Assembly (NCBI GenBank): GCA_038877255.1
Contig: JAVYWZ010000009.1
Coordinates: 5,200-29,652, forward strand
Source: Candidatus Micrarchaeaceae archaeon
GTDB lineage: Archaea > Micrarchaeota > Micrarchaeia > Micrarchaeales > CABMGC01
DNA: 24,453 nt
Reading direction: 5' to 3'
Below the pieces are notes generated by a model that searched no databases, was not told the DNA's origin, and worked only from the letters and a program-made list of their open reading frames with translations. Positions 7,352-9,375 of the stretch are shown piece by piece. Both the position numbers and the translations under genes were made by a program. Each line of letters starts with the position of its first letter. Position 1 is the first letter of the stretch.

Positions 7352-8429
7352 AACCTGCAATTGCTTGCTTACGATTAACTCCAGTCGATGCTGCTGGAGG
7401 ACACTGCTATCGGATTTCGGCAGCCATGCAAGTCTGCCGGGCGGCTTCGCCCGACGGCGTACGGCTCAGTAACGCGTAGCTAACCTAACGTAGAGAACGG
7501 GATAACCTCGCGAAAGTGAGGATAATACCGTATAAACTACTGCAACTGGAATGTGCTGTAGTTAAAAAAGCCTGCGAAATGCAGCAGGTCTGCTCTACGA
7601 TGGGGCTGCGTCAGATCAGGCAGATGGCGGGGTAAAGGCCCACCATACCTTTGACCTGTAGGGGATGTGGGAGCAGAAGCCCCGAGAAGGGCACTGAGAC
7701 AAGGGCCCTAGCGCTACGGCGTGCAGCAGGCGCGAAACCTCCACAATGTGCGAAAGCATGATGGGGGGAATCCGAGTGGCATACTTTTAGTATGCCTTTT
7801 GCCAAGTCTTAACAACTTGGAGAATAAGTGCTGGGTAAGTCCGGTGGCAGCCGCCACGGTAATACCGGCGGCGCTAGTGGTGTCCGCGATTATTGGGCTT
7901 AAAGGGCCAGTAGCCTGTTGGAACCGTCCTGTGTGAAATGTTTGCTCTTAAAGCAAACGCGGGCATAGGATACCTTCCGGCTAGGGAGTGGGAGAGGTCA
8001 AGGGTACTTATGGGGTAGGGGTAAAATCCTGTAATCCTATAAGGACCACCTGTGGCGAAGGCGCTTGACCAGAACACATCCGACGGTGAGTGGCGAAGGC
8101 TAGGAGAACAAATCGGATTAGATACCCGAGTAGCCCTAGCAGTAAATGATGCAGACTCTGGTGTTGCTTTTGCTTCGGCAACGGCAGTACCGTAGAAAAA
8201 TTGGTAAGTCTGCCGCCTGGGGAGTACGGTCGCAAGATTAAAACTTAAAGCAATTGGCGGGGGAGCACCACAAGGGGTGGATGTTCTGGTTTAATTGAAC
8301 ACTACATCGGAAATATTACCTGGAGCGACGGCAGTATGAAGGTCAGGCTAAAGACCTTACTAGATGAGCCGAGAGGTGGTGCATGGCGATCGTCAGCTCG
8401 TGGTGTGAACTGTCCGGTTAAGTCCGGTA

Positions 8430-8918
8430 TGCGGTTGAGTGAAGCTATGAAAATAAGACTCGATAAAGAAATGTGTTATTTTGCCGGCATGCAGAGCAAA
8501 TGGGAAGGCGAAGCTAATTCGCTTGGCATTTGCACAGGCAATGCAGACATACAGCAGAGATTTGTGGAATTGGCAATAAAGAAGCTTGGCGTAAGTGCTG
8601 AAAAGATAAAGCTTGATGGCTCTTGCGCTTATTTCTATAACTCTGGAATAGCAAAGCAGATAAAAAAAGTAATCGCTAAACAGCTAAGGCTCTTTGGCAA
8701 GCAAGGCGAGAATTCTGCAAGCTATATTGCTGGCATGCTCGACGGTGCAGGCAAGATAACACACAAAGGGATTTACATGCGCTTAAGCAGCGCAGATGCA
8801 CTGTTGTTGGAGTTGCTTGGTGTGCACACAAAAGATGGGTATGTGCTTAACGCAAGCAAGCTCATAATGCTTACAAAGCCTTATAGCGTCTTATTGAGCG
8901 GCATTCGACTGCCCGGTA
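8430..8918 (+). mobile_element. Archaeal BHB-type 16S rRNA intron, 489 nt, at about E. coli position 1101/1102
   Basis: 11-bp terminal stem (8431-8441/8902-8912), CCGG/CCGG 4-bp helix, 3-nt bulges TAT and TAA; cutting after the second bulge base restores GTTAAGTCCGGTA|ACGAGCGAG. Confidence 0.95.
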
Positions 8919-8938
8919 ACGAGCGAGATCCTTGCTGA
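8447..8938 (+). CDS. Intron-encoded LAGLIDADG-like homing endonuclease homolog (degenerate); no stop inside the intron
   Basis: Motifs YFAGMQSKWEG and YIAGMLDGAG; the first in-frame stop (TGA 8936-8938) lies in exon 2. Confidence 0.8.
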   Translation: MKIRLDKEMCYFAGMQSKWEGEANSLGICTGNADIQQRFVELAIKKLGVSAEKIKLDGSCAYFYNSGIAKQIKKVIAKQLRLFGKQGENSASYIAGMLDGAGKITHKGIYMRLSSADALLLELLGVHTKDGYVLNASKLIMLTKPYSVLLSGIRLPGNERDPC

Positions 8939-9375
8939 CAGTTGCCACTTGCATAGAGGTATGTAAAGCACTCTGTCAGGACCGCCTCCGTTTAAGGAGG
9001 AGGAAGGAGAGGGCGACGGTACGTCAGGATGCCCCAAATCTCCAGGGCTACACGGGACATACAGAGGCTACCTCAATGGGCTGCAACCTCGAAAGAGGAA
9101 GCTAATCCCCTAAAAGTAGCCAAAGTTCGGATTGAGGGTTGAAACTCACCCTCATGAAGCTGAAATCCCTAGTAATCGCGCGTCACTATCACGCGGTGAA
9201 TGTGTCCCCGCTCCTTGCACACACCGCCTGGCAAGTCATCCAAGTGGGAGTTTAGTGAGGCTGTGCTTATAGCGCAGTCGAACTAGAGTTCTGTGAGGGG
9301 GGCTAAGCCATAACAAGGTATCTGTAGGGGAACCTGCGGATAGATCACCTCGTTAACGTGTGCAATAGGCAAGCG

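What the first reader, a model, noticed from the sequence alone, without database searches (positions are those of the whole stretch)
8430..8918. 16S intron whose excised circle encodes an endless, stop-free ORF (candidate natural rolling-circle translation)
Seen: the intron is 489 nt, exactly 163 codons, and the LAGLIDADG frame has no stop anywhere inside it. Joining its last base (A8918) to its first (T8430-G8431) recreates an in-frame ATG: ...CTG CCC GGT A|TG CGG TTG AGT GAA GCT ATG AAA. Because CCGGTA is directly repeated at both junctions, every splice register that restores the 16S gives the same circle. Known: archaeal BHB introns are excised by the tRNA splicing endonuclease and circularised, and in the I-DmoI intron circularisation supplies the stop codon. 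Here it does not. Inference: three RNA forms give three outcomes. The precursor gives a 163-aa protein ending in exon 2, the linear intron is a non-stop mRNA, and the circle gives tandem 163-aa concatemers unless frameshifting, proteolysis or ribosome rescue intervenes. A length divisible by 3 arises by chance one time in three, so conservation is the key test.
Basis: partly seen in the sequence, partly recalled or inferred. Interest (0 to 1): 0.92.

Follow-up and report, generated by a model that had tools for sequence, protein, structure and literature searches.

The report
16S intron ORF without own stop
A 489-base spliced intron in this small archaeon's 16S rRNA gene is almost entirely one protein gene with no stop codon of its own, so its excised circle could in principle be read endlessly, but relatives show this is an accident of length, not a conserved design.

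Summary
The 16S rRNA gene (7378-9353) carries one 489-nt insertion (8430-8918), flanked by a CCGGTA repeat. The protein frame is open across all of it, so a circle would have no stop.

It is a bulge-helix-bulge intron: the 4-bp helix is always paired, there is a 3-nt bulge, and the adjoining helix covaries. The genome encodes the splicing endonuclease and RtcB ligase. The ORF gives an I-DmoI-like LAGLIDADG fold under purifying selection, but the canonical catalytic acid of motif 2 is missing.

In 53 same-site introns from relatives, length mod 3 is 25/19/9. Twenty-two have a stop inside the intron and four more a stop across the 3' junction. Only 6 (six genera) would give an endless circle, against about 5 expected by chance in the first 45. 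The junction ATG is not conserved; the conserved start is ATG 8447.

All 27 introns that read out into exon 2 meet a stop within 20 nt. That codon is a stop in only 7 of 22 introns with an internal stop and 42 of 60 intronless genes. This suggests the unspliced precursor is translated.

No RNA data exist for this organism. Rolling-circle translation is untested and most likely incidental.

The parts
7378..9353 (+). 16S rRNA gene (exon 1 7378-8429, intron 8430-8918, exon 2 8919-9353)
   Evidence: Rfam RF01959, 1294 bits, model 1-1478 complete. Single 489-nt insertion.
8430..8918 (+). 489-nt bulge-helix-bulge intron, in the register that cuts after the second bulge base
   Evidence: Intronless relatives define the mature sequence. 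Where the two repeats differ in relatives, the exon-1 copy keeps the rRNA-like UA.
8424..8429 (+). 5' copy of the CCGGTA repeat; CCGG (8424-8427) is the 5' strand of the central 4-bp helix H
   Evidence: Read directly. H is paired in 42 of 42 distinct junctions, with G-C / G-U / A-U variation at one pair.
8913..8918 (+). 3' copy of the CCGGTA repeat; CCGG (8913-8916) is the 3' strand of H
8428..8430 (+). 5' three-base bulge (UAU here; UAA in most relatives, GAA in two) holding the 5' splice site
   Evidence: listing. Its last base makes the window's junction ATG.
8917..8919 (+). 3' bulge region (UAA) holding the 3' splice site
   Evidence: the first two bases vary among relatives (UA, AA, UU, AU). 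An outer helix beyond it is weak, so this side is a relaxed form of the motif.
8431..8441 (+). 5' strand of intron helix h' (GCGGUUGAGUG)
   Evidence: Pairs with 8902-8912 in the MFE fold. The first nine pairs are standard in 34-42 of 42 relatives, with 2 to 10 base combinations per position.
8902..8912 (+). 3' strand of intron helix h' (CAUUCGACUGC); also codes the C-terminal tail
8437..8442 (+). Conserved GAGUGA, Shine-Dalgarno-like, 4 nt before the start codon
   Evidence: TGAGTGA(T) recurs in most leaders. AGTGA also precedes the ATG of the free-standing homologues in L024 and L029. Its complementarity to the 16S 3' end GAUCACCUC is my inference.
8447..8938 (+). ORF of 163 codons plus TGA: conserved start ATG 8447, runs through the 3' splice site, ends at TGA 8936-8938 in exon 2
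   Evidence: The homologue P0002 starts at the equivalent MKIRL and ends ...NERDPC. Starts ATGAAA / ATGAC are conserved.
8936..8938 (+). Exon-2 TGA that ends the ORF in the unspliced RNA
   Evidence: This codon is a stop in 25 of 27 read-through introns (the other 2 stop one codon later), against 7 of 22 introns with an internal stop and 42 of 60 intronless genes.

Best explanation
The insertion is an archaeal bulge-helix-bulge intron in the 16S rRNA. It lies in the hairpin GUUAAGUCC, near or at the site that papers on Thermoproteales call locus 1093. The cell's tRNA-splicing endonuclease cuts in the two bulges that flank the CCGG:CCGG helix, and RtcB joins the exons and presumably circularises the intron (inferred).

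Nearly all of the intron is one gene for an I-DmoI-like LAGLIDADG-fold protein of about 148 folded residues plus a disordered tail. Translation starts at the conserved AUG 8447, behind an SD-like GAGUGA.

The gene has no stop of its own. In the unspliced precursor it ends 17 nt into exon 2, at a UGA inside the rRNA. The 15-19 nt (longer in some relatives) leader between the 5' splice site and the AUG drifts in length, so intron length mod 3 is effectively random.

Where the length happens to be 3n and the leader carries no in-frame stop, as here, the excised circle has an endless frame. That state is an incidental by-product with no sign of selection for or against it. The main template for the protein is most likely the unspliced precursor.
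For: Intron identity:
- rRNA model and insertion point.
- Intronless relatives give the mature sequence.
- H is paired in 42 of 42 distinct junctions and the adjoining helix covaries.
- The genome has a splicing endonuclease (two catalytic-domain matches in one 420-aa frame) and RtcB.

Protein:
- AF2 mean pLDDT 93.1, with the last 13 residues at 66 and 51.
- The ten best Foldseek matches are I-DmoI, E about 6e-4 to 1e-3, TM 0.52-0.58. I-Tsp061I and intein endonucleases follow.
- A family profile hits PI-PfuI at E 0.007.
- 9 of 46 family members weakly match Pfam LAGLIDADG_3.
- dN/dS is 0.10-0.37 in 13 of 15 pairs; the other 2 are saturated.

Not conserved:
- 53 same-site introns have length mod 3 = 25/19/9.
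- 6 are endless, in six different genera. Two genera (g4, g30) hold introns of different mod 3.
- In the first 45, 30 have no complete stop inside the 3' part. Of the 12 that are 3n, 6 have a leader stop. The rate is 5 of 11 and 4 of 7 in the other length classes. About 5.0 endless introns were expected and 6 were seen.

Precursor as template:
- All 27 read-through introns stop at +17 (25: TGA 18, TAA 7) or +20 (2).
- The same codon is a stop in 7 of 22 introns with an internal stop and in 42 of 60 intronless 16S genes.
- By genus: 17 of 19 read-through genera have only stops at +17 (the other 2 stop at +20), against 5 of 14 and 11 of 21.
Against: No RNA data exist for this organism, so splicing, circle formation and which RNA is translated are all inferred.

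The exon-2 stop association is not corrected for phylogeny beyond genus and family labels. Relatives share ancestry, and TGA/TAA is also the majority state in intronless genes (70%).

The sample was not random. Searches took rows that looked like same-site introns. Searches took 60 not-yet-fetched rows whose match began at query base 1, which favours exon 2 sequences similar to the window's.

The outer helix on the 3' side of the BHB is weak, and the MFE fold of the window alone places both bulges on one strand.

The absence of selection against endless circles could also mean that circle translation occurs but is harmless.
Confidence: 0.72

Rival explanations
1. Rolling-circle translation really occurs. 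The excised circle is a stable mRNA, ribosomes start at AUG 8447 and go round repeatedly, and the product is a string of LAGLIDADG-fold units joined by a flexible linker of about 20 residues, either tolerated or used.
For: The circle is 3n and stop-free and has an AUG behind an SD-like motif. The enzymes for cutting and ligation are present. The tail that would become the linker is predicted disordered, so repeated units could fold independently (inference). Six lineages carry such circles with no sign of selection against them. A review cites the D. mobilis intron circle as an early case of a coding circle and lists eukaryotic endless ORFs (passages read).
Against: Neither the 3n length nor the stop-free state is conserved, and the endless state occurs at the chance rate. 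The junction ATG is not conserved. The exon-2 stop is kept where the ORF needs it, which only matters if unspliced RNA is translated. The start region lies in or next to a stable helix. There is no RNA or protein evidence.
Confidence: 0.13
2. The insertion is not spliced by the BHB pathway. It either stays in the rRNA as an expansion segment or is cut out without exon ligation (fragmented 16S), and the ORF is read from the rRNA transcript only.
For: No RNA evidence of splicing exists for this organism. The 3' side of the motif lacks a clear outer helix.
Against: The 4-bp helix, 3-nt bulge and covarying flanking helix are what the splicing endonuclease recognises (BHB description read). The insertion interrupts a universally conserved hairpin that 60 relatives have intact. 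This lineage's endonuclease is the long multi-unit form; I recall that form as having broad substrate range, and the paper appears only as a reference title.
Confidence: 0.06
3. The ORF is a decaying remnant and the open frame is a leftover; no protein is made.
For: The window's protein has no Pfam hit, and the canonical catalytic acid of motif 2 is missing.
Against: dN/dS is 0.10-0.37 between related introns. The nearest homologue is 67% identical over 163 residues without a gap. The fold is predicted with confidence. Homologues were found in 287 of 401 genomes of the phylum.
Confidence: 0.05

Closest known systems
Archaeal BHB rRNA introns carrying LAGLIDADG genes, e.g. the I-DmoI intron of Desulfurococcus mobilis 23S rRNA
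   Same: An enzyme-spliced intron in an rRNA gene holding a single-chain two-domain LAGLIDADG-fold ORF. I-DmoI chains are the ten best structural matches. Such introns are described as excised and circularised (passages read).
   Different: The ORF here fills the intron apart from a 17-nt leader and has no stop of its own, ending in exon 2. The canonical catalytic acid of motif 2 is absent. The host is a small-genome archaeon (0.71 Mb in 30 contigs, estimated 92% complete), not a crenarchaeote. How the I-DmoI ORF ends could not be checked.
16S rRNA introns of Thermoproteales at 'locus 1093' (Jay & Inskeep 2015, PMC4496867)
   Same: BHB introns, many with LAGLIDADG genes, at a 16S site numbered 1093 and also seen in Desulfurococcales and Aigarchaeota (passages and section 5 read). 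By my own estimate from recalled primer coordinates, the window's site is E. coli ~1095-1101, so it may be the same or an adjacent site.
   Different: Site identity is not proven, because the paper's text gives no flanking sequence. Those introns are often over 700 nt. The paper says nothing about ORFs ending in the exon or about length mod 3: 'stop codon' and 'circular' each occur 0 times in it.
Endless ORFs (iORF) in circular RNAs: circEGFR, circTau 12->10, and the 220-nt satellite RNA of rice yellow mottle virus
   Same: A circle of 3n length without a stop, or one read in shifting frames, can be translated round and round (review PMC11724312, passages read).
   Different: Those are eukaryotic back-spliced exons or a plant virus satellite, with experimental evidence. 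Here there is only sequence, the host is an archaeon, and the property is not conserved among orthologues.
Intron ORFs that share codons with an exon (mitochondrial group I intron ORFs fused in frame to the upstream exon); recalled, no call
   Same: The intron gene depends on exon sequence for part of its reading frame.
   Different: There the fusion is to the upstream, protein-coding exon. Here the ORF runs out into a downstream rRNA exon and only borrows its stop.

Membership tests
Archaeal bulge-helix-bulge intron | Central 4-bp helix | tested here: met
   CCGG 8424-8427 pairs with CCGG 8913-8916. All four pairs are standard in 42 of 42 distinct junctions; one pair varies G-C 38 / G-U 3 / A-U 1.
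Archaeal bulge-helix-bulge intron | Two 3-nt bulges on opposite strands, each flanked by an outer helix | tested here: inconclusive
   The 5' bulge (UAU/UAA/GAA) lies between H and a covarying helix of 9 or more bp. The 3' bulge bases vary as unpaired bases would, but the outer exon-exon helix is at most 2 bp, and the MFE fold of the window puts both bulges on one strand. It is a relaxed form.
Archaeal bulge-helix-bulge intron | Removal restores the conserved host RNA | tested here: met
   Removing 489 nt gives GUUAAGUCCGGUAACGAGCGAGA, as in 60 intronless relatives and the Rfam consensus.
Archaeal bulge-helix-bulge intron | Host has the splicing endonuclease and RNA ligase | tested here: met
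   PF01974 twice in one 420-aa frame (80.8 and 21.5 bits); RtcB at 555 bits.
Archaeal bulge-helix-bulge intron | Excised, with exons joined and intron circularised, in RNA | not testable with these tools
   No RNA run holds the intron. The laid RNA contigs cover only exon parts and come from other organisms.
LAGLIDADG homing endonuclease | Two-domain alpha-beta-beta-alpha-beta-beta-alpha fold | tested here: met
   AF2 pLDDT 93.1, pTM 0.88. Foldseek gives 11 matches at E <= 0.001: ten I-DmoI chains and one intein endonuclease.
LAGLIDADG homing endonuclease | Acidic catalytic residue at the end of each LAGLIDADG helix | tested here: not met
   The profile aligns YvAGlFDaaG with PI-PfuI FIAGLFDAEG. 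The column under that E is A101 in the window. Its eight commonest residue types, covering 44 of 46 sequences, are A, S, C, N, R, M, K, T; none is acidic. Motif 1 reads YxAGLxS with no fixed acid; a Glu five residues later is present in 25 of 46. That this E of PI-PfuI is the catalytic residue is recalled.
LAGLIDADG homing endonuclease | Recognised by curated family models | tested here: inconclusive
   The window's protein has no LAGLIDADG hit at E <= 1. 9 of 46 family members hit LAGLIDADG_3 (best 6.4e-5) and 7 hit Hom_end.
LAGLIDADG homing endonuclease | Cleaves the intronless allele at the insertion site | not testable with these tools
   Needs a biochemical assay.
Endless-ORF circular RNA (rolling-circle translation) | Circle length divisible by 3 with no in-frame stop | tested here: met
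   489 nt; frame open 8430-8918.
Endless-ORF circular RNA (rolling-circle translation) | Internal start with a ribosome-binding signal | tested here: inconclusive
   A conserved AUG at 8447 is preceded by the conserved GAGUGA. The motif lies partly within helix h'. Its function is inferred.
Endless-ORF circular RNA (rolling-circle translation) | Property kept in orthologues | tested here: not met
   6 of 53 same-site introns; length mod 3 = 25/19/9. About 5.0 were expected by chance in the first 45, where the same 6 were seen.
Endless-ORF circular RNA (rolling-circle translation) | Circle and multimeric product observed | not testable with these tools
   No RNA or protein data for this organism.

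The most novel reading that the evidence does not exclude
In this archaeon, and in five other sampled lineages whose intron happens to be 3n and stop-free, the circularised 16S intron is a natural endless mRNA. Ribosomes entering at AUG 8447 would make beads-on-a-string multimers of a LAGLIDADG-fold protein. Sister lineages with a stop make monomers, which amounts to a ready-made natural comparison for rolling-circle translation in Archaea.

A second reading is more likely but less spectacular. The pre-rRNA itself serves as the mRNA, and a codon inside the 16S rRNA is kept as a stop for the intron's gene.
Probability: 0.13. Interest if true: 0.8.

Novelty: new variant of a known kind. Interest (0 to 1): 0.42.

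Why it matters
The headline idea, a designed endless circle, does not survive comparison with relatives. That saves effort on a conserved-mechanism hypothesis.

What remains is still useful:
- This BHB intron sits at one 16S site in 5 families and 34 genera of the sampled phylum.
- Its gene fills the intron and commonly ends in the downstream rRNA exon. The exon stop appears to be kept where it is needed.
- If that holds under a proper phylogenetic test, an archaeal pre-rRNA is being used as an mRNA, and an rRNA position carries a second, coding constraint.
- The scattered lineages with endless circles give a clean in vitro or meta-omic test of whether archaeal intron circles are translated at all. 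Reviews still treat that on the strength of 1980s-90s work.
- The protein looks like a LAGLIDADG fold that has lost its canonical active-site acid yet stays under selection and also occurs as a free-standing gene, which hints at a role other than DNA cleavage.

Tried and rejected
- RNA evidence. The one run search found only two DNA runs holding the stretch (shares 0.94 and 0.41). The four RNA runs held 0.05, which is exon words. Laying X9 and X6 (RNA contigs, min likeness 88) gave no cover of 8430-8897 and no joints. Loose ends at 8429 and 8913 show exon 1 next to exon 2, but in sequences 88-99% like the window that belong to other organisms. They say nothing about splicing here.
- DNA of the nearest homologue P0002. 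It was not found in genome contigs or metagenome contigs, so its intron length and dN/dS against the window are unknown. The four same-genus genomes have no match to the protein or to exon 2, probably because their 16S is unassembled.
- Word-indexed protein search. It found only one homologue, while the six-frame genome search found 287 genomes. The first result is a sensitivity limit, not rarity.
- Anchor patterns. My first patterns missed or mis-placed several introns. They were replaced by a longer fuzzy exon-2 anchor.
- Group I intron. Considered because such introns occur in rRNA genes of this phylum. Rejected because 472 of the 489 nt are ORF and Rfam reports nothing but SSU rRNA.
- Original papers on I-DmoI and the Aeropyrum introns are not held.
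- Earlier findings of this scan hold nothing on this place or sequence.
- The sigma-70 promoter and terminator scan was at background level and is not informative for an archaeon.

Full report
**1. The observation**

Rfam's archaeal SSU model matches window 7378-9353 from end to end at 1294 bits. Re-run on 8300-9020, the alignment shows one insertion of 490 nt against one consensus position, between GUUAAG and CCGGUAACGAGCGAGA. Intronless relatives read GTTAAGT-CC[G/T]G[T/G]A-ACGA, so the insertion is 489 nt.

The sequence itself shows CCGGTA at 8424-8429 and at 8913-8918, with different bases on both sides. Every register that restores the rRNA therefore gives the same circle.

Logan contigs of run X1 (8400-8749 and 8722-9050) and of a second sample X2 (8626-8882) match without a single difference or indel. 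X1 may be the sample of origin.

**2. What the insertion is**

I collected same-site introns from relatives and compared their junctions. Among the first 45 introns there are 42 distinct junction sequences.
- The exon-1 CCGG pairs with the intron-terminal CCGG in 42 of 42. One pair varies G-C 38 / G-U 3 / A-U 1.
- On the 5' strand three bases follow (UAA in most, UAU in the window, in L002 and in L039, GAA in two).
- Next comes a helix whose first nine pairs are standard in 34-42 of 42, with 2 to 10 base combinations per position.
- On the 3' strand this helix runs straight into CCGG, followed by two variable bases and the exon.

This is the helix-bulge-helix core that the archaeal splicing endonuclease recognises (description read in PMC4344496). 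The outer helix on the 3' side is weak, so it is a relaxed form of the motif.

The genome encodes the endonuclease, with two catalytic-domain matches in one 420-aa frame, and RtcB. Where the two repeat copies differ in relatives, the exon-1 copy keeps the rRNA-like UA.

**3. The protein**

- The window's product has no Pfam hit, and the word-indexed search found one homologue. That homologue is 67% identical over 163 residues with no gap. It starts at the equivalent of ATG 8447 and ends ...IRLPGNERDPC.
- A six-frame search of 401 genomes of the phylum found matches in 287.
- An alignment of 46 sequences gave an AlphaFold model with mean pLDDT 93.1. The last 13 residues score 66 and 51.
- The ten best Foldseek matches are I-DmoI chains (E about 6e-4 to 1e-3, TM 0.52-0.58). 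I-Tsp061I and intein endonucleases follow.
- The family profile hits PI-PfuI at E 0.007. 9 of 46 members weakly match Pfam LAGLIDADG_3.
- dN/dS is 0.10-0.37 in 13 of 15 pairs; the other two are saturated. The gene is translated and under selection.
- In the PI-PfuI alignment, the column under the E of FIAGLFDAEG is Ala in the window. Its eight commonest residue types, covering 44 of 46 sequences, include no acidic residue. The canonical catalytic acid of motif 2 is therefore missing. That this E is catalytic is recalled, not tested.

**4. The conservation test**

I examined 113 16S genes of the phylum at this site.
- 19 of the 30 loci contain the site.
- 34 of the 40 regions contain it. These rows were chosen because they looked like same-site introns.
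- All 60 regions contain it. These were not-yet-fetched rows whose match began at query base 1.

53 genes carry the intron and 60 do not. Because of how the regions were chosen, this is not a prevalence estimate.

| Measure | Result |
|---|---|
| Intron length | 489-593 nt |
| Length mod 3 (0 / 1 / 2) | 25 / 19 / 9 |
| Stop inside the intron | 22 |
| Stop (TA\|A) across the 3' junction | 4 |
| Reads out into exon 2 | 27 |
| Endless circle | 6 (window, L002, L030, L032, L033, L039) |

The six endless introns lie in six genera of two families. Two genera (g4, g30) hold introns of different mod 3.

In the first 45 introns, 30 lack a complete stop inside the 3' part. Of the 12 that are 3n, 6 have a stop in the leader. 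The rate in the other two length classes is similar (5 of 11 and 4 of 7). About 5.0 endless introns were expected if length class and leader stops are independent, and 6 were seen.

Length mod 3 varies mainly because the untranslated leader varies: it is 15-19 nt in the window's family. The junction ATG occurs only in the window and L002. The conserved start is the ATG at 8447, behind a conserved GAGUGA, and AGTGA also precedes the ATG of the free-standing homologues in L024 and L029.

**5. Which RNA is translated**

All 27 read-through introns meet a stop at +17 (25: TGA 18, TAA 7) or at +20 (2). The same codon varies freely elsewhere.

| Class | Stop at +17 | Genera with only stops at +17 |
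|---|---|---|
| Read-through introns | 25 of 27 (other 2 stop at +20) | 17 of 19 (other 2 stop at +20) |
| Introns with an internal stop | 7 of 22 | 5 of 14 |
| Intronless genes | 42 of 60 | 11 of 21 |

In the introns with an internal stop the non-stop codons are CAA, TTA, AGA, CTA, GAA, CGA and GGC.

The exon sequence can matter to the ORF only if unspliced RNA is translated. I therefore read this as evidence that the precursor is a template. It is suggestive only. The test lacks a real phylogenetic correction, and a stop is the majority state anyway.

**6. What could not be done**

No RNA run holds the intron, and the laid RNA contigs cover only exon parts from other organisms. The DNA of the nearest homologue was not found.

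**7. Literature**

- Jay & Inskeep 2015 (PMC4496867; passages and section 5 read) list BHB introns with LAGLIDADG genes at 16S locus 1093 in Thermoproteales, Desulfurococcales and Aigarchaeota. The terms 'stop codon' and 'circular' do not occur in that text.
- Nawrocki et al. 2018 (PMC6125680; passages) report group I introns, and co-occurring BHB introns, in rRNA genes of Micrarchaeota.
- A 2024 review (PMC11724312; passages) cites the D. mobilis circle as coding for a 194-aa endonuclease. It lists endless ORFs in circEGFR and circTau and in a 220-nt satellite RNA.
- My searches listed no paper on an endless ORF in an archaeal intron or on an intron ORF ending in an rRNA exon. I judged this from the titles and abstract openings listed, and from the passages of the six papers I opened. 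Subscription papers are not covered.

**8. Verdict**

The thing is a new variant of a known kind: a BHB rRNA intron with a LAGLIDADG-fold gene, here filling the intron and borrowing its stop from the exon. The endless circle is most likely an accident of leader length. Rolling-circle translation is not excluded, but nothing beyond the sequence itself supports it.

Noticed in passing
L024:1501-2036 (+), about 210 nt after the 16S 3' end; L029:1510-1992 (+); also L008, L012, L015-L017, L020-L023, L025, L027: Homologues of the intron protein also occur as free-standing genes with their own stop. Some lie just downstream of an intronless 16S gene and others beside a tRNA gene. L024 keeps the AGTGATGCAATGAAA start region and has an AT-rich TATA-like stretch upstream.
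   Followed up: partly
window 8447-8935 (protein residues 99-102) and alignment A1: The family keeps an invariant Asp (D99) and Gly (G102), but has Ala, Ser, Cys and similar residues where PI-PfuI has the Glu of FIAGLFDAEG. Motif 1 has no fixed acid. The protein may not be a canonical double-strand endonuclease.
   Followed up: partly
window 8441, loose end in run X1 (table 7): One DNA contig of the same sample follows the window up to 8441 and then continues with the leader and start of a different same-site intron, identical over the 30 letters shown to the L011 type. A second related archaeon with this intron therefore lives in the same sample.
   Followed up: no
L030:787-3061 (-): This relative's 16S match is 2275 nt, about 290 nt longer than the other intron-bearing genes. 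It must hold a further insertion elsewhere in the gene.
   Followed up: no
G126: contigs C18 and C19: One genome bin has two 16S exon-2 matches. The one on C19 has the intron (L003). The one on C18 is followed by a free-standing homologue at C18:1080-1550. This may be two strains in one bin or two rRNA genes.
   Followed up: no
window 1-24453: Rfam finds only the 16S rRNA in the 24-kb window, ARAGORN finds no tRNA, and no 23S or 5S follows the 16S. The rRNA genes are therefore unlinked here.
   Followed up: no
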